Origin: a virus
IMG/VR virus record: IMGVR_UViG_3300008262_000024
Coordinates: 28,843 to 92,842 of that record
Length of the DNA stretch: 64,000 nucleotides
Direction: 5' to 3' (one strand)
The position numbers and the translations under genes were made by a program. Position 1 is the first letter of the stretch; each line of letters opens with the position of its first letter. The notes beneath the pieces are model-generated. The model made no database searches. It was not told the origin of the DNA and was given only the letters and a program-made list of their open reading frames with translations. Shown here in pieces: positions 30,412 to 38,596 of the stretch.

Positions 30412-30936
30412 TTAATATTCTTTATAATCTGTTTTATAAGGATCACTCTTTAAATGATTAGCAAGTTCTCTGCACCATTTTCTTGTAGGTATAAACATTA
30501 CTAATGATTTACCTTTATATTGTGCATCATTCTTGATATATTTAAATTTCATCCTGTATTTGTTTTTACAATATATTTTAGGTTTGTTAGTTATAGTCTT
30601 TAATTCTTCAGCAGATATATCACCATATACTTTCTTCCAGTATTCTTTAGTTGCCTTCCAATCTACCTTATAACAGATTCTGTTTACAGTACCATCTTTA
30701 CTGTAAACAATTTTCTGTTTTTTCTTCTGTATTTCTAATGTTCCAAACTTATGTGGAAACTTAAGACTATATCCATTCTTAATAACCATATCCATTAGTT
30801 CATCAAAAACCTGAGTGAATACAGTATTATATTTTTCTTTGCTAATATTAGATGATGTAGAATTCTTATAATGGTTATATATATCATCATAACCAATATT
30901 TATATCAAACTTATTTTTAGAATCTTTTCTTGTCAT
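30412..30936 (-). CDS. IHF/HU-like DNA-binding protein (crAss type)
   Basis: Basic protein with LKFPHKFGTLEIQKKK and VDWKATK; conserved position between ring genes in crAss-like phages. Confidence 0.75.
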   Translation of the reverse strand: MTRKDSKNKFDINIGYDDIYNHYKNSTSSNISKEKYNTVFTQVFDELMDMVIKNGYSLKFPHKFGTLEIQKKKQKIVYSKDGTVNRICYKVDWKATKEYWKKVYGDISAEELKTITNKPKIYCKNKYRMKFKYIKNDAQYKGKSLVMFIPTRKWCRELANHLKSDPYKTDYKEY

Positions 30937-31685
30937 TCTTGTTGTCTATTGCTACCAGGATCAGTACCAGCTTGTGTAAAATTAGCTGCTACTGTTGGTA
31001 TAGCATCATCTTTAGCATTGTTATTTTCATCTCTATAAAGAGTTCTCTTAGTTCTCAATTCATTAAGAACAGCAGGTTTAACAAGTGTTTGCCACATCCA
31101 TGCATTAATAGGATAACGAGAATCCCAAGTAAAACATGGTTTACCATCACAAGTTTGATAAGTACCTGCTTCTGTAGGGTCTTCAAATACTCCTTGAATA
31201 TTTAAAGTTTCAATAAGTTTGTTGTGATTACCTTTATTATAAACAATATATAGATAATTATTTTTAATAAATGCACCTAATGATTTGGTATTATACCTAC
31301 CATTGCCATAATAAATAGCATGATCATAATCCATAAAATAAATAGGGATAGACATGAAATCGACAGGAGCAATTCTTGTAATAATTTTTTCATGGTTTAA
31401 TTCTATTGCATTAGGTATTTTAGTTGATGATCTAAGTATTTTACAATCTATAAATACATCACAACAGTTATCAGATTGTCTATTAACTAATGACATAGGT
31501 ACACAACCTAAATCTTGTATAATATTATCATCAATACTTCTGTTCTTATTATGTTCTTTTCTTATCCAATTAGCTCTCTCTTGATTAATTAAATCTTTAA
31601 TTAAACGTTTATCTAATGAAGTATCATCAGATGAAATCTGAAGGTCTTCATATATCTGATAAATCATTTGGTTTAGAGTTATCAT
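30933..31685 (-). CDS. Tail ring structural protein
   Basis: MITLNQMIY..SDD, QDLGCVPM and GVFEDP..YPI motifs typical of crAss ring proteins. Confidence 0.7.
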   Translation of the reverse strand: MITLNQMIYQIYEDLQISSDDTSLDKRLIKDLINQERANWIRKEHNKNRSIDDNIIQDLGCVPMSLVNRQSDNCCDVFIDCKILRSSTKIPNAIELNHEKIITRIAPVDFMSIPIYFMDYDHAIYYGNGRYNTKSLGAFIKNNYLYIVYNKGNHNKLIETLNIQGVFEDPTEAGTYQTCDGKPCFTWDSRYPINAWMWQTLVKPAVLNELRTKRTLYRDENNNAKDDAIPTVAANFTQAGTDPGSNRQQE

Positions 31686-31687
31686 AA

Positions 31688-32275
31688 TTATCTATTTAAT
31701 TGGTATGAAAAACCTACTACTACTGTCCTAGATAGTGGTAGATAGTTCAGCTGGTAAAGATAACCTTTTTTGTGATAAAAAGATATACCCATACCTGCAT
31801 CAAAACCATATGCTGTTGGACTAGCTAATATTAAACCACCCATTGCTAATACATTCTTATTAACCTTAACTATATTAGTTACAGTATTAGTTATTGTATC
31901 TACTTGAGTAATGGTTCTATATATTTCTTTAGGTACCTTAAGTTTGTATTTAAAATCAGAGCTTACTAATACACCATCTACTTTACTAATAAATATAGCA
32001 TCTAAACTACTGTCACTATGCTCTTGAGTATATACACTTAATACAGTATCTTGAGGATCAGGAGTTGGTTTAGGTACTTTTAAAGTAACATACTTTGTAA
32101 TAGTATCCACTTTAACCTTAGTAATAGTATCTCTGTGAGTTTTAATAACTGTTTTAGTTACTTCCCAAGGTTCTTTAGGACATGCATTGTGACATTGTTG
32201 TAATAAGAATAACATAACTAATAATACAATTATTGTTATTCTTTCAATAGTAAACCAAGATTTATTTTTACTCAT
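31688..32275 (-). CDS. Membrane-anchored lysis protein, spanin candidate
   Basis: N-terminal TM helix, DTI-rich extended region and C-terminal amphipathic beta strands ending GFSYQLNR; adjacent to an endolysin. Confidence 0.5.
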   Translation of the reverse strand: MSKNKSWFTIERITIIVLLVMLFLLQQCHNACPKEPWEVTKTVIKTHRDTITKVKVDTITKYVTLKVPKPTPDPQDTVLSVYTQEHSDSSLDAIFISKVDGVLVSSDFKYKLKVPKEIYRTITQVDTITNTVTNIVKVNKNVLAMGGLILASPTAYGFDAGMGISFYHKKGYLYQLNYLPLSRTVVVGFSYQLNR

Positions 32276-32784
32276 AGTTTCCAGGGTTTGTATAAAGTTT
32301 TTTTACCAGATTTATATGCTCTTAATACTTGCATTCTATTGTTATCATTAGAATATGATATGTGAATCCATGAAGGATTCTCATCAGAACCAAATTCTAA
32401 TATACATTGATCAAATTTAAAATCAGGATCTGCACATAAATCTTTTATTACAGATACTAAAGAACCATTAAATTCTTTACCATCTTTAATAAAGTTAATA
32501 TCTGCTGCCTGACCATAACAGTGCTGTGAAGTTTGTACAGGTTTACCATTAATAATAGTATATGCACCACCTATTTTAGCATTAAGTCTAGGACATCTAT
32601 AACCTGAAGTTACAGTAATACTAGCTTTTAATGCATCTCTAATAGGTTGTAGTACTTTTGTACACAACAAAGTTAAATTGTTTATTACCTCATCAGGAGG
32701 ATTGAATTGCTCATCAAATCCCCATCTACTTGCTGTCTGAGATTTTAACATCTCATCTAAGCTAAAGTTTCTACTAAGTTTCAT
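32272..32784 (-). CDS. Peptidase M15A family endolysin
   Basis: SGYRC, SQHCYGQAADI and WIHISY zinc-binding motifs. Confidence 0.9.
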   Translation of the reverse strand: MKLSRNFSLDEMLKSQTASRWGFDEQFNPPDEVINNLTLLCTKVLQPIRDALKASITVTSGYRCPRLNAKIGGAYTIINGKPVQTSQHCYGQAADINFIKDGKEFNGSLVSVIKDLCADPDFKFDQCILEFGSDENPSWIHISYSNDNNRMQVLRAYKSGKKTLYKPWKL

Positions 32785-33070
32785 TTTCTGTCTGTTTTTC
32801 TATTTTTGTTTTTATTTTAGTCAAACCCATCCCTCCTAGTATAACAGATGTCATTGTTATTAATACTATTTCTACTAATTCTGAATTAGGTATTTGATTT
32901 TTTTTATAAAGTATAATTCCTGTTGTAATAAAGAATCCTATTACAAATGCAAATACAGTTAATCTTTTATGATCTATCTTACCATTGTTTCCTTTAAAAG
33001 ATTCAATGAAAGAGTTCTTAACTATTTTTGACATATTTCTCAAGTTCTGCTTTAAGTTGTTGAATTTCAT
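32774..33070 (-). CDS. Putative holin (2 TM); start probably the ATG at 33034
   Basis: Two hydrophobic helices and a charged C-tail; directly upstream of the endolysin. Confidence 0.6.
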   Translation of the reverse strand: MKFNNLKQNLRNMSKIVKNSFIESFKGNNGKIDHKRLTVFAFVIGFFITTGIILYKKNQIPNSELVEIVLITMTSVILGGMGLTKIKTKIEKQTENET

Positions 33071-33326
33071 TTGCTTGTCTTATATTTTCTTGTTCTAATT
33101 CTGCTATTCTTTTAACTAATTTTTCTTCTAATAGATATGCTTCATGTTCTCTTTGTTCAAGAATAGTAATCTTTTTTTCAAGTCTATCTATTTCACTATA
33201 TAGTTTATCTTGAATTTCAGCAAGCATATCTACTGTATCTTTCTTTTTACTAAATAATCTAGGTACAATTGTAGTTACTACAGCTGAACCTAGTGCAATT
33301 AAAGCTAAAAGAATTGGTTGATTCAT
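33018..33326 (-). CDS. Membrane-anchored coiled-coil protein (holin/lysis accessory)
   Basis: N-terminal TM helix followed by a heptad coiled coil; lies in the lysis cluster. Confidence 0.5.
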   Translation of the reverse strand: MNQPILLALIALGSAVVTTIVPRLFSKKKDTVDMLAEIQDKLYSEIDRLEKKITILEQREHEAYLLEEKLVKRIAELEQENIRQANEIQQLKAELEKYVKNS

Positions 33327-33334
33327 AAGTTAGG

Positions 33335-33886
33335 TTATTTAAAAAGTGTTACTCTACCAAATTTGGTGTATTGTTTATTGTTTACATCTTTATAACTAAG
33401 TTTATAGGTATAGACATCATCTTGGCAAATTTCACCTTTGTATGTACCATCCCATCTATTGTTTAAATCATTACTTACAAAAAGTAATTCTCCCCATCTA
33501 TTCCAGATAGTAAGTTTAAAATCTTTAATGTTAATTCCATAAGCACCAAATGTATCATTAACTCTATCATCATTAGGTGTAAATGAATTAGGTATCCATA
33601 AAAAACTTTCCTTACATTCAATGATTTGTAATACTAATAAGTCTTTAGTATAACAATAACCATTGCTAAAAGTAGCAGTAATTACATATGTACCCAAGTC
33701 ACTGATAGTTATTGTCATAACATCATCATTAACTTGGTAAGGTATTAAAGGGGAAACACTCCAGTTTATAGATTGTGCTGAAGTGTTTGCTCTTATTTCC
33801 TTCTGAATATATGAATCACATAATTCATATGTTGTTTGTGCCATGAGATTCATACTTATCAATAATGTAAGTAGTGTATATTTCAT
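33335..33886 (-). CDS. Secreted protein with T9SS type B (gliding motility-associated, CHU_C) C-terminal sorting domain
   Basis: Signal peptide ending LMA|Q; C-terminal IPNSFTPNDDRVND..IWNRWGELLF..WDGTYKG..GRVTLFK is the canonical type B CTD. Confidence 0.92.
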   Translation of the reverse strand: MKYTLLTLLISMNLMAQTTYELCDSYIQKEIRANTSAQSINWSVSPLIPYQVNDDVMTITISDLGTYVITATFSNGYCYTKDLLVLQIIECKESFLWIPNSFTPNDDRVNDTFGAYGINIKDFKLTIWNRWGELLFVSNDLNNRWDGTYKGEICQDDVYTYKLSYKDVNNKQYTKFGRVTLFK

Positions 33887-34446
33887 TAGTCAGTATATAT
33901 TATTCCAGTAGGTAAAGGTTCTACAGTTGCAGTACCTGCTCCAGTAATAGAACAGCCATTTGCAGTCTGAGAAACAACAGTTATATTATAAGTTCCAGGT
34001 GCTAATCCTGCAGGATTAAAAGTATTTCCTGATACTCCAGGTCCATTAAATATAGGATTAGTACCAAGATTTTGTCCTGTAATAGTTACATTACCACCAT
34101 CTTGACATAATACTATAGGGTCTATTGTAGCAATAACATTAGGTTGTACAGTTATATTAGCTACTGTTGTAAATTGACAACCTGCTGCATTAGTTTCTGT
34201 CATAGTCATAGTGTATACTCCAGGTGTTAACCAAGTAACTTGTATTTGTTGTCCAACAACAGTAAATGCTTGTGGAGGTAAAATGTTAAATGTATATGTT
34301 GAAGTAGGGTTAACTACTTGATCTCCATAGAAATGTACTGCATTAGGACATACTACTTGTCCATCAGCAATATTAGGTGTTGGTACCTGTCCAAATATTG
34401 TTATAGTTAACAATATAAAAAATAATGACAAAAACAAATTTTTCAT
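33886..34446 (-). CDS. Secreted Ig/PKD-like (SprB-repeat-like) protein; start revised to ATG 34446
   Basis: Signal peptide MKNLFLSLFFILLTITIFG|Q; two Ig-like repeats (PGVYTMTMTETNAAGC, PGTYNITVVSQTANGC); a TATATTTG promoter at 34461-34468 supports the later start. Confidence 0.75.
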   Translation of the reverse strand: MKNLFLSLFFILLTITIFGQVPTPNIADGQVVCPNAVHFYGDQVVNPTSTYTFNILPPQAFTVVGQQIQVTWLTPGVYTMTMTETNAAGCQFTTVANITVQPNVIATIDPIVLCQDGGNVTITGQNLGTNPIFNGPGVSGNTFNPAGLAPGTYNITVVSQTANGCSITGAGTATVEPLPTGIIYTD

Positions 34447-34460
34447 AACAAATCTTTTAA

Positions 34461-34468
34461 CAAATATA
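34461..34468 (-). promoter_or_regulatory. TATATTTG promoter of the Ig-like and CTD genes
   Basis: Consensus match 14 nt before the ATG at 34446. Confidence 0.65.
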
Positions 34469-34494
34469 CTTAATATACAGATTACCATTTATAC

Positions 34495-34962
34495 CTAATA
34501 GTTTACATTATATTTGTTAAATAAATCCTTAAAATAAGATACATTATCTACATAGATATAATACTTATTTTCAGTAACTATATTGTATATTTTTAATCTA
34601 TATACTAAGTGAGATTTTAACCAATCAGACTCTTTTTCTGACAGGTTATACATTGCTAATATTTCACAAGAAAGTCTACTATAACTCTTGATAGTTAATG
34701 AATCAGAGTTAGAGTAAAATGTTAAATCAGTCTCATCAGAACAATAAGAATCTAAAGGAGGACCTTTTCTAAGTTCTATTCCATGAGGTAATTTATCTTT
34801 ATAATACAGTTTAATAGTCCTTATATACCAATACTTAGGACCTAGATCTTCATTCTCAATAATAGGTACAATTCTTACATCACCTTTTGTAAAAGGTTCT
34901 GGAGAACTTCCTACTGAAAACAGTAATATTGCAAAAAATGATATTAAAAATTTGTATTTCAT
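34495..34962 (-). CDS. Hypothetical exported protein
   Basis: N-terminal hydrophobic signal-like segment; own promoter at 35010-35017. Confidence 0.6.
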   Translation of the reverse strand: MKYKFLISFFAILLFSVGSSPEPFTKGDVRIVPIIENEDLGPKYWYIRTIKLYYKDKLPHGIELRKGPPLDSYCSDETDLTFYSNSDSLTIKSYSRLSCEILAMYNLSEKESDWLKSHLVYRLKIYNIVTENKYYIYVDNVSYFKDLFNKYNVNY

Positions 34963-35009
34963 AAGATAAATATTACATCGTATATCTTATGAAACACCTT
35001 ATTTCACTG

Positions 35010-35017
35010 CAAATATA
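35010..35017 (-). promoter_or_regulatory. TATATTTG promoter of the 155 aa gene
   Basis: Intergenic consensus match. Confidence 0.65.
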
Positions 35018-35043
35018 AGCAAAAATTATACTACTTATTCTAC

Positions 35044-36396
35044 CTAATTTGTGTATATAGCAGCAGTAGGATCTGGTACAACTACAATGGGTAACTGAAC
35101 TGTTCTAACACATCCATTAAATGATACTAAATTTAACTGATAATTTGTACTTACAGATGGTGTAACATTAATACTTTGTGTAGTTTGATTAGTAGGTAAC
35201 CATTGATAAGATTGATAACCATTAGGTGCAGTTAATGTTATAGTTTCTCCTACACATATAGTATCAGGATATGCATCTAAAAATGATTGTGAACATGCAG
35301 CATCTATGTAAGCATAACCATAGTGTGCACTTTGAGTACAATCTCCTGTAGTAAATTCTGCTGTAACTGCTTGTCCTATATAGTTATCTAGGTCTACATT
35401 TACTGTACTCCAAGGTTTATATCTAACTCCTGTACAAGTTGTTGAGTTAAAAAACCCAGGTAAATTACTAGCAGCAGATACTACAAACTCTGAACATGGT
35501 ATTACATTACCATTTTGATCTCTTAATAATGCTCTAAAAAAAGGTTGTTCATTAGATGTATGACCAGGATCTTCAAACACTACAGCATATCTATATGTAA
35601 AACTATTATTAGTATTAGTTACCATAAATGTTTGTGTTAATTGTTCTGCTTGTGAATTAACATTAGCATCACCTAATCTAACAGAATACGGTCCACCTAA
35701 TGGATCTACTCTTGGAAATCCTGCACAAGGATCATTACCACCTGTCATTATAGTATGTCTTCCATTAACTATACCTAATGCTGTTGCATCATAATTAGGT
35801 GTTGGTGCATCAATATAAGCTCTTGTAGATAAACCTGTTGTACCAAACCATCCTGTAAAATTGTTATTATTAAATCCAATATTAGTACAGGCAGGTTGAA
35901 CTGGTACAGGAGTAAATTGAATATTTAAATCAAATTGATAACAGTTTGAGAATATGTTTCCCCAAACATAAGTATCTACTAAAACAAAATAAGTTTGTCC
36001 TCCTTGTACATATTCAACTATAGATGCATTACTAGTTGCAGTATTGTAAAGTGAAAATCCCATACATGCTCCTGCAGTTCCAGGACATGCACTTGATAAT
36101 ACAAGTGTTGGATATGTATTTGTAGCTGGTTGTACATCATTAAGAACAATATTTATATAACCATCTTGAAGTGGAACAAAACTATATAACCAATCTTGTC
36201 CACCATAATAATTACCTGTAGCAGTAAATATACAGGGATTACTTCCTGTATAATCATTTAAATCACCACAAGTAGTTTGATTATTAGTAAAAAATGGTAG
36301 AGTTACAGGATTAGCTGCAGCACCTGTACAAGTATTAGAACCTTGTGAATATACTTTAGTATATATAAGTAGTATAATTAAAATATACCTAATCAT
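35044..36396 (-). CDS. Secreted adhesin-like protein resembling the N-terminal part of Bacteroidota T9SS/SprB-type adhesins, without a CTD
   Basis: Signal peptide ending VYS|Q; YSVRLGD, YAVVFEDPGH and HYGYAYID motifs; ends with an Ig repeat (ICVGETITLTAP..YQW..GC). Confidence 0.75.
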   Translation of the reverse strand: MIRYILIILLIYTKVYSQGSNTCTGAAANPVTLPFFTNNQTTCGDLNDYTGSNPCIFTATGNYYGGQDWLYSFVPLQDGYINIVLNDVQPATNTYPTLVLSSACPGTAGACMGFSLYNTATSNASIVEYVQGGQTYFVLVDTYVWGNIFSNCYQFDLNIQFTPVPVQPACTNIGFNNNNFTGWFGTTGLSTRAYIDAPTPNYDATALGIVNGRHTIMTGGNDPCAGFPRVDPLGGPYSVRLGDANVNSQAEQLTQTFMVTNTNNSFTYRYAVVFEDPGHTSNEQPFFRALLRDQNGNVIPCSEFVVSAASNLPGFFNSTTCTGVRYKPWSTVNVDLDNYIGQAVTAEFTTGDCTQSAHYGYAYIDAACSQSFLDAYPDTICVGETITLTAPNGYQSYQWLPTNQTTQSINVTPSVSTNYQLNLVSFNGCVRTVQLPIVVVPDPTAAIYTN

Positions 36397-36401
36397 ATAT
36401 A

Positions 36402-36409
36402 CAAATATA
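36402..36409 (-). promoter_or_regulatory. TATATTTG promoter of the adhesin-like gene
   Basis: Intergenic consensus match 5 nt before the ATG at 36396. Confidence 0.65.
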
Positions 36410-36868
36410 CTAACTAAAGTACAAACTTGCTTCTTCTTCTCTTCTTCTAACTAGACCTTTAAGAGTTTTACCACCTGCTTTTACCCACTTCATAAACTCA
36501 GTTTTTATAGTAGGATCATTTGGATTAGCATTTATTTTCTTTAATAATGTACTAGCTTTAAGATTAGCTGGACCCAGATTAAAGCAAAAAGATACTAATG
36601 CATCAAATTGATTTTGATTAAGTTTATCTGTACAATAACTATCTACATATTGCTCAAATTTTTCTAAATGTTTCTTTAGAATAACCTCAGCAACAGCTTC
36701 ATTTATTGGATCATCAGTTAATTTAACTTTAGTACCATCAGGATAGAATGTTGCACCAAAACCAATTGTAGCTACATTAGCAGGACAGAGGTATGGTTTA
36801 GATCTAAATCCTTCATACTTTTTAATAAGGTCTACACCCTTTTTACTTGTTTTAGTTATTTTAGTCAT
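36410..36868 (-). CDS. Phage lysozyme (GH24) endolysin
   Basis: EGFRSKPYLCPANVATIGFG, QNQFDALVSF.FNLG and GLVRRREEEA motifs. Confidence 0.93.
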   Translation of the reverse strand: MTKITKTSKKGVDLIKKYEGFRSKPYLCPANVATIGFGATFYPDGTKVKLTDDPINEAVAEVILKKHLEKFEQYVDSYCTDKLNQNQFDALVSFCFNLGPANLKASTLLKKINANPNDPTIKTEFMKWVKAGGKTLKGLVRRREEEASLYFS

Positions 36869-36874
36869 AGTTAA

Positions 36875-38596
36875 TTAATTTACAAAGGTATATCCAACAG
36901 TAGCAGCAGTTGAAGGTACAGGAGCTATACCCGTTCCCCAATTGAAGGTAGTTGTAACGGTTCCATTAAAAGTATAAATAGTCTGTTTTATTGGACTACC
37001 AACACCATTGTTACCTGATGAGTCTATGTTTGTTGGACTAACATATTCAACCTGCTGTTGAGCTGTATTTTCTAAATTAAATATTGCTTTAGTTGGAGCT
37101 GTTGATGCATTTAATAATATAGAACCAAAAGGACCTCCACCAAGCATAAGTAAATCATTCAATATGCTATAAGTTACTGCTGATTTTAATGTAATATTTC
37201 TTAAGGCACTTGATGTATTAATTGCTTGAAGTCTATCTACTGTAAATCCAAATGTTGTTGGAGATGTAAATGATGTAGTTGATGAAAGCGATAATCTAAG
37301 TAATGCACAGTTTAGTGTTGAACTTAAATTTAATGTTCCTGTATTTATTTCTAAATAAGAAAACTTAAAAGAAGGAACTGCACATGAATAGTTAAGTTGT
37401 GAAGTAACAGCATTTCCACTTATAAATATTACAGATGTACTGCTTTGAGTAACAGTACCAGATGTATGTGTCCATGAATATGTTGATCCTGATGGAATAA
37501 ACAATCTAAATGGATATAATGGATTAGCAGGATTAAAAACTACACTACCACCACCTGTTTTATTAATTGTCAAACTCTTAACTTGAATATTTGTAGTATT
37601 TGTCCAAGTTGTTACTGTACTTGTTGTTGTACCACTAAATTCTAATATATCTATTGTGCAGTTTGATGTACTTGAATGATTCCAATTTCCTTCCAATAAT
37701 AATCTTGAACCACCTGTTGATGTGATAACCATTGTACCATCAATTCTTATGAATGATTTAATAACAGTATCTGTTGCTAACGACAATGTTCCTTGCACAT
37801 AAGCTATGAAGTCTGAATTATTTGAAGCATTAAATCCTGATAGCGTTAATGTTCCTCCATTACTAAATGTATGTGTAGAAACAGCAGTAAATTGTCCACC
37901 AGATTCTACCGTAAAGAAATGATTTCCTGATGAAATGTTTCCACTTCCAGAAGTTGTATATGTACTGCCAGAAACAAATGAAACTCTTAAATTAGTAGCA
38001 ATACCACCTGTTGCAATAAATGTCTTTGAAGTACCATATCCTTTGATGGTAACATGGTCTGTTGCATTAGTAAGGACAGCTCTAATATCAATATTACCTC
38101 CTATCCTTAAATCAATTGTAGTTCCTGTAGCAGCTTTAAAATTATGCGTAGATGTGTTAGTTATTAAATTACCTTGAAAATCTGCATTTCCAGCAAAGGT
38201 TAATGTATTACCTCCACCCATATTACCAGTATTCAAATTTACTGGCAATATTTTCCCATTTGCTGTGAAAGTTAAATTAACATTTCTTGGCAAAAAACTA
38301 TAAGATGTGACTGTAGCATTTGTACTATAAGTAGTAGCTGCACCTAATGTTGTATTTCCACAAGTAAGGTTTGCTCCAAATGTAAATGTTCCTGTATAAC
38401 CTGTAAAATCTATGGTTAAAACATTAGCAGCTGCAGTAAGAGTTACTATGCCAGTACCAGAATTAGCATCAAAAAACACATCATCAGCTACTGTTGGAAC
38501 AGAAGCCCCTCCTGCACCACCAGATGTAGCAGACCATTTAGTACCTGCTGTTCCATCCCAATTAGCTGTTCCTCCTACCCAATACCTTAAAGCCAT
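36875..38596 (-). CDS. Tail spike / receptor-binding protein (beta-helix-like)
   Basis: RYWVGGTANWD..WSATSGG..VPT..DDVFFD start; Thr/Ser/Gly/Asn-rich beta-repeat composition. Confidence 0.65.
   Translation of the reverse strand: MALRYWVGGTANWDGTAGTKWSATSGGAGGASVPTVADDVFFDANSGTGIVTLTAAANVLTIDFTGYTGTFTFGANLTCGNTTLGAATTYSTNATVTSYSFLPRNVNLTFTANGKILPVNLNTGNMGGGNTLTFAGNADFQGNLITNTSTHNFKAATGTTIDLRIGGNIDIRAVLTNATDHVTIKGYGTSKTFIATGGIATNLRVSFVSGSTYTTSGSGNISSGNHFFTVESGGQFTAVSTHTFSNGGTLTLSGFNASNNSDFIAYVQGTLSLATDTVIKSFIRIDGTMVITSTGGSRLLLEGNWNHSSTSNCTIDILEFSGTTTSTVTTWTNTTNIQVKSLTINKTGGGSVVFNPANPLYPFRLFIPSGSTYSWTHTSGTVTQSSTSVIFISGNAVTSQLNYSCAVPSFKFSYLEINTGTLNLSSTLNCALLRLSLSSTTSFTSPTTFGFTVDRLQAINTSSALRNITLKSAVTYSILNDLLMLGGGPFGSILLNASTAPTKAIFNLENTAQQQVEYVSPTNIDSSGNNGVGSPIKQTIYTFNGTVTTTFNWGTGIAPVPSTAATVGYTFVN

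What the first reader, a model, noticed from the sequence alone, without database searches (positions are those of the whole stretch)
33335..36409. Phage-encoded split T9SS adhesin with apparent donor-strand complementation
Seen: three genes each have a Sec signal peptide cleaving before Gln. Together they rebuild the layout of one Bacteroidota SprB-like adhesin: head plus Ig repeat (450 aa), two Ig repeats (186 aa), and Ig repeat plus type B CTD (183 aa). Only the last has a T9SS signal. The other two stop at the same motif, VVPDPTAAIYTN* and VEPLPTGIIYTD*, which resembles the first strand of a following Ig repeat (compare the internal TVQPNVIATIDPIVLC). The mature CTD protein begins QTTYELC, apparently lacking that strand. 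Known: type B CTD cargo is exported by T9SS with a PorP/SprF partner; none is evident here, so a host one would be needed. Inference: the subunits chain head to tail by strand donation into a phage-built surface filament on the infected cell, possibly of variable length, altering adhesion/gliding or blocking receptors and superinfection.
Basis: partly seen in the sequence, partly recalled or inferred. Interest (0 to 1): 0.87.

Follow-up and report, generated by a model that had tools for sequence, protein, structure and literature searches.

The report
Split phage T9SS adhesin, docking tails
A large uncultured phage of Bacteroidota encodes a host-type surface adhesin cut into separately exported proteins; only the last carries the type IX secretion tag, and the others end in a tiny conserved peptide that probably clips them to it, which would be an undescribed way of loading cargo onto that secretion system.

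Summary
They are a 450-aa lectin-like head plus Ig, a 186-aa two-Ig protein, and a 183-aa Ig plus type B CTD (CHU_C, 60.9 bits against a cut-off of 27). The two CTD-less proteins end in PxP-x4-I-Y-T-N/D.

The tail is real and general. 77 of the best 120 homologues of the head end in hydrophobic-x-[H/T/S]-[N/D]. In phage contigs, 38 of 48 distinct small CHU_C proteins have such a gene directly upstream, and 30 have two. None of 19 large CHU_C proteins does. The chance rate is below 1%.

Bacterial relatives are single chains of 700-2700 aa. The closest are 56-67% identical, and there the tail-equivalent is the first strand of the next PKD domain.

The best reading is a phage "split adhesin": tails dock onto a minimal CTD carrier for hitch-hiking through the host T9SS. 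Docking by strand donation is plausible but unproven, since no multimer fold was possible. A variable-length filament is not supported.

This scan found the same module before on other phage DNA (e1-5342369, e1-5342377, e1-5339332). I found no paper describing it.

The parts
35044..36396 (-). Head protein, 450 aa. Signal peptide, N-terminal beta-sandwich (about residues 19-165, 35902-36342), jelly-roll core (about 170-370, 35287-35889), Ig domain (about 372-440, 35077-35283), and tail. No CTD.
   Evidence: ORF. AlphaFold2 pLDDT 89.3, pTM 0.84. Foldseek matches CBM, MAM and collagen-binding-type sandwiches and no enzyme fold. 253 homologues. No Pfam, NCBIfam or PHROG hit.
35047..35076 (-). C-terminal tail of the head, PDPTAAIYTN (residues 441-450), followed by the stop codon.
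   Evidence: No secondary structure in the model; mean pLDDT of the last 10 residues is 63. 77 of the best 120 homologues end in hydrophobic-x-[H/T/S]-[N/D]. Collinear with the A strand of the next PKD domain in fused bacterial homologues.
34495..34962 (-). Secreted 155-aa protein of unknown role, with no tail and no CTD. It travels with the cassette in the closest phage relatives.
   Evidence: ORF. 77% identical copy in L015. 156-157-aa secreted proteins at the same place in L112-L114 and L118. No Pfam, NCBIfam or PHROG hit. Nearest Atlas clusters are viral hypothetical proteins.
33886..34446 (-). Middle protein, 186 aa: signal peptide, two Ig/PKD-like repeats, and the tail PLPTGIIYTD (33889-33918). 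Its stop overlaps the start of the next gene (TAATG).
   Evidence: PKD 23.9 bits (cut-off 23.5) and PKD_4 at E 2.7e-4 (21.4 bits, below its cut-off of 27). The repeats match up to 59 stretches in giant adhesins of 1000-6300 aa. Small homologues of 186-189 aa end in IYTD, LNSD, FNSN or ISNN. Alignment of 38 distinct middle proteins. Sequence.
33335..33886 (-). Carrier, 183 aa: signal peptide (33839-33886), one Ig domain starting QTTYELC (33611-33838), and a type B CTD (33338-33595).
   Evidence: CHU_C E 1.3e-16 and TIGR04131 E 2.1e-14, both above their curated cut-offs. AlphaFold2 pLDDT 89.2, with seven strands at 18-90 followed by the CTD sandwich. 28-sequence family alignment.
36402..36409 (-). 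TATATTTG box, which fits the Bacteroidota -7 promoter consensus TAnnTTTG, 5 nt upstream of the head ATG. The same octamer lies at 35010-35017 (before the 155-aa gene) and at 34461-34468 (before the 186-aa gene, inside the longer 200-aa ORF).
   Evidence: Sequence. The octamer occurs 12 times in the window, with 11.4 expected by chance. The placement is suggestive only.

Best explanation
This is a phage-encoded surface adhesin of the T9SS type B cargo kind, divided among separate genes.

- The 183-aa protein is a minimal carrier: one Ig domain plus a type B CTD.
- The 450-aa lectin-like head and the 186-aa two-Ig protein have no CTD. Each ends in a conserved docking tail: PxP, four or five residues, Ile/Val/Leu, x, Thr/His, Asn/Asp, then the carboxyl end.

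Proposed course of events:
1. All pieces cross the inner membrane by Sec.
2. In the periplasm each tail binds the carrier. The most likely mode is an added beta-strand on the carrier's N-terminal Ig domain, which begins about where the A' strand begins in related domains.
3. The folded complex leaves through the host T9SS on the carrier's CTD.
4. It is held at the surface by a host PorP/SprF-type shuttle.

Shown here: the gene set, the domains, the homology to single-chain adhesins, the conservation of the tail, and its tight linkage to small carriers in phages. Inferred: docking, co-export, surface display and any benefit to the phage. Possible benefits are re-dressing the infected cell, masking or displacing a receptor adhesin, or changing adhesion.
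For: 1. Domains.

2. Fused relatives. In 80 bacterial loci, 72 of 99 ORFs with the head core carry CHU_C and none has the tail. The closest are 56-67% identical over all 450 residues. They are 1640-1912 aa chromosomal genes, three of which lie next to genes that read as ftsA and ftsZ.

3. In those fused proteins the tail position reads PYPVASFTSN and continues APAC..., the start of a PKD domain.

4. Tail conservation without selecting on the tail. 77 strict plus 3 loose matches among the best 120 homologues. Position -3 is Ile in 55 of 67 distinct tails, position -1 is His (36) or Thr (31), and the last residue is Asn (59) or Asp (8). At the same place the fused proteins are variable.

5. Linkage. 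Of 48 distinct CHU_C proteins of 215 aa or fewer in phage contigs, 38 have a tail gene directly upstream and 30 have two. Of 19 with more than 300 aa, none does. Background rate of the tail pattern is 2 of 561 ORFs far from carriers and 6 of 832 ORFs in bacterial loci.

6. The tail sits on unrelated heads: a PKD-bearing head, a weak sub-threshold match to the T9SS-associated galactose-binding domain (22.1 bits, cut-off 27), the ALK/LTK glycine-rich domain, and many with no Pfam family.

7. Different lineages use different tail endings together with different carriers: TN/TD, HN/HD, IYKQ, and FRRQ in a prophage-like region. This fits a co-inherited partner better than one universal host reader.

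8. The stop of the 186-aa gene overlaps the carrier's start codon.

9. The module lies in complete phage genomes of 170-322 kb.

10. T9SS moves folded proteins, and type B CTDs need PorP/SprF-like shuttles, some of which are shared by orphan cargo (PMC12618676, PMC9251779).
Against: - No direct evidence of binding. No multimer prediction could be run.
- The carrier's Ig domain folds confidently alone, with seven strands.
- The head's own Ig shows its A-strand region unpaired and at low confidence, so A strands may matter little in this Ig type.
- In the His-class lineages the carrier's N-terminus is only 2-5 residues shorter than that of the middle protein's first Ig.
- Three related partial phage records (L007, L009, L014; 7-32% complete) carry the head but no CHU_C gene.
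- There are two donors but only one evident acceptor site.
- No PorP/SprF gene is in the record, so anchoring depends on an unknown host protein.
Confidence: 0.55

Rival explanations
1. The tail is a sorting or processing signal read by a host factor, such as a T9SS component, a peptidase or a ligase, and not by the carrier. Carrier and tail-bearing proteins would then be independent cargoes that merely share an operon.
For: The last two residues and the free carboxyl end are the most conserved part, as in C-terminal recognition motifs. Heads can be encoded 31 kb from the carrier, or in partial records with no carrier. Asn and Asp, and His and Thr, interchange within one locus.
Against: The pattern is almost confined to genes directly upstream of small carriers (38 of 48, against under 1% background). 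It was absent from 99 bacterial homologues. Lineage-specific tail variants go with lineage-specific carriers. No known Bacteroidota sorting signal has this form, as far as I know.
Confidence: 0.15
2. One reading: subunits chain head to tail by donor-strand complementation into a surface filament of variable length.
For: The gene order head, two-Ig protein, carrier is conserved; 30 of 48 carriers have two tail genes upstream. Both upstream proteins carry the same tail. The tail is homologous to an A strand. Bacteroidota type V pili polymerise by strand exchange (PMC4789730).
Against: A polymerising subunit needs both a donor strand and a vacancy. The two-Ig protein begins with its own linker and A-strand-like segment: QVPTPN... 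or QLTTTNPDTVC. Some complete phages have only a head plus a carrier (L026). No chaperone, usher or maturation protease was found.
Confidence: 0.1
3. Gene fission without assembly. The CTD-less proteins act on their own in the periplasm or after lysis, and the tail only caps the last Ig domain.
For: The cassette lies among lysis genes, between a GH24 lysozyme and an M15 peptidase. Related modules also neighbour endolysin genes. Phage lysis would release periplasmic proteins anyway.
Against: A mere cap would not need His/Thr then Asn/Asp at the very end across unrelated heads. It also would not explain the near-obligate pairing with a cargo-less CTD protein of about 185 aa. The tail is unstructured in the model rather than packed on the Ig domain.
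Confidence: 0.1
4. The proteins are virion or lysis components, for example outer-membrane disruptors or decoration proteins, and not cell-surface adhesins.
For: Position between tail-fibre-like genes and the lysis cassette.
Against: Sec leaders with Gln at +1 and a bona fide T9SS CTD point to export. There is no PHROG structural family. The closest relatives are chromosomal bacterial adhesin-like genes.
Confidence: 0.05

Closest known systems
Single-chain type B CTD cargo of the Bacteroidota T9SS (SprB and other 'gliding motility-associated C-terminal domain' adhesins with PorP/SprF-type shuttles; PMC12618676, PMC9143113)
   Same: Sec leader, lectin-like head, Ig/PKD repeats and a CHU_C/TIGR04131 domain. 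The head is 56-67% identical to the N-terminus of chromosomal 1640-1912-aa proteins of this kind.
   Different: Here the chain is cut into separately exported proteins, and only the last has the CTD. The others end in a conserved tail that the single-chain forms lack. The stalk is far shorter. No shuttle gene is present.
Type V pili of Bacteroidota (FimA/Mfa1) and chaperone-usher pili: donor-strand complementation or exchange (PMC4789730; otherwise my own knowledge)
   Same: The idea of an Ig-like subunit completed by a strand from a neighbouring subunit. In type V pili the donated strand is C-terminal.
   Different: Those pilins are lipoproteins or chaperone-bound subunits, they polymerise, and they need a protease or an usher. 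Here there is no lipobox, chaperone, usher or self-complementary subunit, the strand in question is an A strand, and export would be by T9SS.
Phage-encoded T9SS type A cargo of 'Cryophage' (Bellas et al. 2020, PMC7468147)
   Same: A phage of Bacteroidota that encodes proteins with T9SS sorting domains, presumably using the host system.
   Different: Those are single-chain type A CTD enzymes. Here the CTD is type B, sits on a near-empty carrier, and is partnered with CTD-less tailed proteins.
Hitch-hiker export by the Tat system (a signal-less subunit carried by a signal-bearing partner; cited in PMC9251779)
   Same: The logic of a folded complex leaving on one partner's signal.
   Different: A different machine and membrane. 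No such mode has been described for T9SS in the papers I could search.

Membership tests
T9SS type B CTD cargo (the 183-aa protein) | C-terminal CHU_C / TIGR04131 domain above the curated thresholds | tested here: met
   PF13585 at 60.9 bits (cut-off 27), covering positions 3-81 of 86. TIGR04131 at 53.4 bits (cut-off 35).
T9SS type B CTD cargo (the 183-aa protein) | N-terminal Sec signal peptide | tested here: met
   MKYTLLTLLISMNLMA|Q, judged by reading and by a crude heuristic. A helix at residues 4-12 precedes the domain in the model. No dedicated predictor was available.
T9SS type B CTD cargo (the 183-aa protein) | Cognate PorP/SprF-like shuttle, often encoded next door | tested here: not met
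   No PF11751 match in the 92.8-kb record, which is 55% complete. Orphan type B cargo that uses a shared shuttle is known (PMC12618676), so this does not exclude membership.
T9SS type B CTD cargo (the 183-aa protein) | Secretion depends on T9SS | not testable with these tools
   Needs expression in wild-type and T9SS-mutant Flavobacterium.
T9SS cargo (the 450-aa and 186-aa proteins) | Own type A or type B CTD | tested here: not met
   No CTD model hit. The proteins end 7-8 residues after the PxP linker.
Donor-strand complementation systems | Acceptor subunit with an Ig-like fold that lacks one strand | tested here: inconclusive
   The carrier's mature N-terminus has 5 residues before the conserved Cys. 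The homologous first Ig of the middle protein has 8-12. AlphaFold2 still gives a confident 7-stranded domain.
Donor-strand complementation systems | Donor strand that is surplus to its own subunit | tested here: met
   The tail is unpaired in the model. It aligns with the A strand of the following PKD domain in fused homologues.
Donor-strand complementation systems | Self-complementary subunit that can polymerise, with chaperone/usher or protease-driven maturation | tested here: not met
   The middle protein has its own A-strand-like N-terminus. Head-plus-carrier-only systems exist. No such accessory genes were seen near the module.
SprB family proper | SprB repeat (PF13573) and a giant multi-repeat chain | tested here: not met
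   No PF13573 hit on the window's proteins. Only some fused relatives carry it.

The most novel reading that the evidence does not exclude
T9SS can export hetero-oligomers assembled in the periplasm. A portable tail of about 10 residues, an orphan Ig A strand ending in His/Thr then Asn/Asp, would be a natural hitch-hiking tag. It would clip any CTD-less passenger onto a minimal Ig-plus-CTD carrier, possibly locked by a metal or a covalent bond at the invariant terminal Asn/Asp. Large phages would use this to swap the heads they display on infected cells.
Probability: 0.4. Interest if true: 0.85.

Novelty: new variant of a known kind. Interest (0 to 1): 0.72.

Why it matters
Every described T9SS substrate carries its own C-terminal domain. 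A family of at least several hundred phage proteins that lack one would point to cargo loading in trans. These proteins share a tiny conserved tail and are encoded next to a near-empty CTD carrier.

If confirmed, it would:
- show that the T9SS translocon passes non-covalent complexes;
- give a minimal carrier and tag pair for surface display in Bacteroidota;
- reveal how large freshwater phages re-dress the surface of their hosts with exchangeable heads copied from the hosts' own adhesins.

The question can be tested directly with a few constructs in Flavobacterium johnsoniae.

Tried and rejected
Searches that gave nothing useful:
- Megablast of 33000-37000 against deposited phages: no match.
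- tblastn of the head against deposited phages: no match.
- tblastn of the carrier there found only three uncultured records. The best, LR745206.1, is a fused 1205-aa CHU_C protein and not the split module.
- A single-sequence scan of viral contigs with the carrier found nothing. An alignment query was needed.
- The listing of cluster members gave no accessions or organisms.
- PDB sequence search: only the CTD of the Aureispira GhpA grappling hook matched, and nothing matched the head.
- Foldseek on the carrier gave only generic tandem Ig hits.
- The Atlas gave no lead for the 155-aa protein.

Ideas rejected:
- One gene broken by a frameshift, read-through or another genetic code. Each gene has its own leader peptide, and the arrangement is conserved in dozens of phages.
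- The tail as the first strand of the CHU_C domain. Short fused proteins do read ...IKHN|VFTPNGD, but the closest fused homologues of this head continue into a PKD domain.
- CTD-only proteins of 111 aa next to a head as proof of docking on the CTD. The same complete genome has a normal carrier elsewhere.
- Co-variation of tail class with carrier. Asn/Asp and His/Thr mix within single loci, so it is uninformative.
- A conserved Lys/Glu or similar set in the carrier's Ig that would suggest an isopeptide lock. None is invariant.
Full report
**What is there.**
The window is part of a 92.8-kb IMG/VR virus record judged 55% complete. All genes in the region run on the minus strand. In order they are:
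- a GH24 lysozyme (36410-36868);
- a 450-aa protein (35044-36396);
- a 155-aa protein (34495-34962);
- a 186-aa protein (33886-34446);
- a 183-aa protein (33335-33886);
- two small membrane proteins;
- an M15 peptidase (32272-32784).

The four middle proteins have hydrophobic leaders. In three of them the leader is followed by Gln. Only the 183-aa protein has a T9SS signal: CHU_C at 60.9 bits against a cut-off of 27, and TIGR04131 at 53.4 bits against 35. The record holds no second CHU_C, no type A CTD and no PorP/SprF. The 450-aa and 186-aa proteins end in PDPTAAIYTN and PLPTGIIYTD. Among 49 non-overlapping ORFs of the window, only these two fit the pattern hydrophobic-x-[H/T/S]-[N/D]-stop. 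The stop of the 186-aa gene overlaps the start of the 183-aa gene (TAATG).

**Folds.**
AlphaFold2 on a 69-sequence alignment gives the 450-aa protein pLDDT 89 and pTM 0.84. The model has an N-terminal beta-sandwich, a jelly-roll core and one Ig domain. The last ten residues have no secondary structure and a mean pLDDT of 63. Foldseek finds carbohydrate-binding, MAM and collagen-binding-type sandwiches and no catalytic fold. The protein is therefore a binding head and not an enzyme.

The 183-aa protein (28-sequence alignment, pLDDT 89) is a seven-stranded Ig domain at residues 18-90, followed by the CTD sandwich. The two repeats of the 186-aa protein match up to 59 stretches in giant Bacteroidota adhesins.

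**Relation to bacterial proteins.**
A scan of one genome per prokaryote species found 581 stretches related to the head. In the best 80 loci, 72 of 99 ORFs holding the core domain also carry CHU_C. The rest are cut by contig ends or appear to end in other sorting domains. None ends in the tail. The closest relatives are 56-67% identical over all 450 residues and are 1640-1912-aa proteins. Three of them (L035, L036, L039) lie beside genes that read as ftsA and ftsZ in Flavobacteriales or Bacteroidia MAGs. At the position of the phage tail these proteins read, for example, PYPVASFTSN, and then continue APACDEPVQLQ..., the start of a PKD domain. The tail is therefore homologous to the first (A) strand of a domain that the phage protein no longer has.

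**The tail is conserved and is more than an A strand.**
I took the best 120 homologues of the head, chosen without regard to their C-termini.
- 77 end in the strict pattern and 3 in a loose form.
- Most of the remaining CTD-less ones end in near variants such as IIYKN, NIHEN or PIQFN.
- 21 are fused CHU_C proteins.

Among 67 distinct tails, position -3 is Ile in 55, position -1 is His in 36 and Thr in 31, and the last residue is Asn in 59 and Asp in 8. The fused proteins vary freely at the last two positions. The split forms are therefore under an extra constraint. Close relatives of the head (65-87% identical) carry either Thr-class or His-class tails.

**Linkage to small carriers in phages.**
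An alignment of carriers found 257 CHU_C stretches in IMG/VR contigs, and I analysed the best 80 loci.
- Of 48 distinct CHU_C proteins of 215 aa or fewer, 38 have a tail-bearing gene directly upstream and 30 have two in a row. About five of the rest have variant tails (PIYKQ, LNSDN, GNITH).
- Of 19 distinct CHU_C proteins longer than 300 aa, none has such a neighbour.
- The pattern occurs in 2 of 561 ORFs far from carriers in the same loci, and in 6 of 832 ORFs of the bacterial loci. None of those six follows a PxP linker.

The tailed proteins belong to unrelated families. One carries a PKD domain, one gives a weak sub-threshold match to the T9SS-associated galactose-binding domain, one has an ALK/LTK glycine-rich domain, and most have no Pfam family.

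The module lies in phage genomes that CheckV calls complete (294 kb, 322 kb, and 170 kb with terminal repeats). Its neighbours there include genes that read like tail sheath, nucleotide-metabolism and DNA-replication genes. In four bacterial genomes that carry the fused homologue, about 8 of the 150 listed CHU_C matches (164 in all) lie in small frames. I fetched the regions around seven of these, in six loci. One belongs to a three-gene split module. It lies next to a weak portal match, a RadC-like gene and a weak anti-restriction match, so it is probably a prophage, and it uses yet another tail ending (...IGFRRQ). The split form thus looks like a phage speciality, and the fused form is the bacterial norm.

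**How it most likely works.**
The shared tail on unrelated passengers, and its near-obligate pairing with a carrier that has almost nothing but a CTD, argue for one reading. The translational coupling and the lineage-specific pairs of tail and carrier point the same way. The tail attaches CTD-less passengers to the carrier, so that they leave through the host T9SS on the carrier's signal. T9SS moves folded proteins, and type B CTDs need PorP/SprF-type shuttles. Some orphan cargoes share one shuttle (PMC12618676), so a host shuttle could serve.

Where the tail binds is inferred, not shown. The carrier's Ig is homologous to the first Ig of the two-Ig protein (E about 1e-10 to 1e-12). Its mature N-terminus is shorter, with 5 residues before the conserved Cys against 8-12. 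It begins about where the A' strand begins. That fits strand donation.

Three results weaken this reading:
- The carrier folds confidently alone.
- The head's own Ig has its A-strand region unpaired in the model.
- The length difference is small in the His-class lineages.

**What is not supported.**
A filament of variable length needs a subunit with both a vacancy and a donor strand. The two-Ig protein starts with its own linker and A-strand-like segment (QVPTPNIADGQVVC, or QLTTTNPDTVC in other lineages). Some complete phages have only a head plus a carrier (L026). In one complete genome the head is 31 kb away from the two-Ig protein and carrier. A set of 1:1 complexes on one carrier type is the simpler picture. 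The roles suggested for the phage cannot be tested here: superinfection exclusion, receptor masking and changed adhesion. Two context clues are the head's 56-67% identity to a chromosomal adhesin of likely hosts, and the repeated placement beside endolysin genes.

**Novelty.**
Phage-encoded T9SS type A cargo has been reported once (Bellas et al. 2020, PMC7468147). Searches for piggy-back, hitch-hiking or strand complementation in T9SS found nothing comparable. Notes of this scan show that the same three-part module, in its I-x-H-D/N form, was found before on other phage DNA (e1-5342369, e1-5342377, e1-5339332). Those are unchecked AI notes and I did not use them as evidence. My tests were run independently and agree with them. 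This window adds:
- the Thr-class tail (IYTN/IYTD);
- the mapping of the tail onto the fused host homologue;
- the counts given above.

**Limits.**
Signal peptides were judged by eye. Most relatives are metagenomic and have no host. Contig incompleteness limits all statements of absence.

Noticed in passing
window 36410-36868 and 32272-32784: Two unrelated cell-wall hydrolases flank the cassette: a GH24 phage lysozyme (E 1.7e-41) and an M15 peptidase (E 2.7e-14). Related split modules in other phages also neighbour endolysin genes (L004, L112-L118, L192).
   Followed up: partly
window 36402-36409, 35010-35017, 34461-34468: The same TATATTTG octamer, which fits the Bacteroidota -7 box, precedes three cassette genes. 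Overall the octamer occurs at chance frequency in the window (12 seen, 11.4 expected), so only the placement is notable.
   Followed up: partly
window 33018-33326, 32774-33070, 31688-32275: Small membrane or coiled-coil proteins (102 and 98 aa) and a 195-aa protein with an N-terminal membrane helix lie around the M15 peptidase. They are candidate holin or spanin-type lysis partners with no family hits.
   Followed up: no
window 2-29172: Five very large minus-strand ORFs in a row (2293, 2118, 694, 3014 and 1591 aa), downstream of a PHROG 'virion structural protein' (30933-31685, phrog_9863, E 2.5e-30).
   Followed up: no
L021 7309-9075; L022 7173-7751 and 7803-10082; L026 3756-5297: In related giant phages the module sits among other secreted proteins: a chondroitinase-B-like lyase (E 1.5e-59), a non-specific nuclease with a leader peptide, an S8 subtilase, and a papain-like protease with Ig domains. 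These phages thus carry a wider set of exported proteins.
   Followed up: partly
L022 5415-5747; L031 728-1063; L131 (110-aa ORF): Phage proteins of 110-111 aa that consist of a leader peptide and a CHU_C domain only, that is, a secretion tag with no passenger at all.
   Followed up: partly
L196 2980-5449 (bacterial chromosome G011): A three-gene head, two-Ig protein and carrier module with different tail endings (...HFNREG, ...IGFRRQ). It lies beside a weak portal match, a RadC-like gene and a weak anti-restriction match, inside the same 4.2-Mb MAG chromosome that encodes the fused homologue of the head. It is probably a prophage.
   Followed up: partly
L035, L036, L039: The fused 1640-1646-aa homologue of the head has conserved neighbours in three MAGs. 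By their N-terminal sequences these look like ftsA and ftsZ on one side and a formiminotransferase-like gene on the other. No adjacent PorP/SprF-sized gene was seen, which suggests an orphan type B cargo of the likely host clade. No family search was run on these neighbours.
   Followed up: partly
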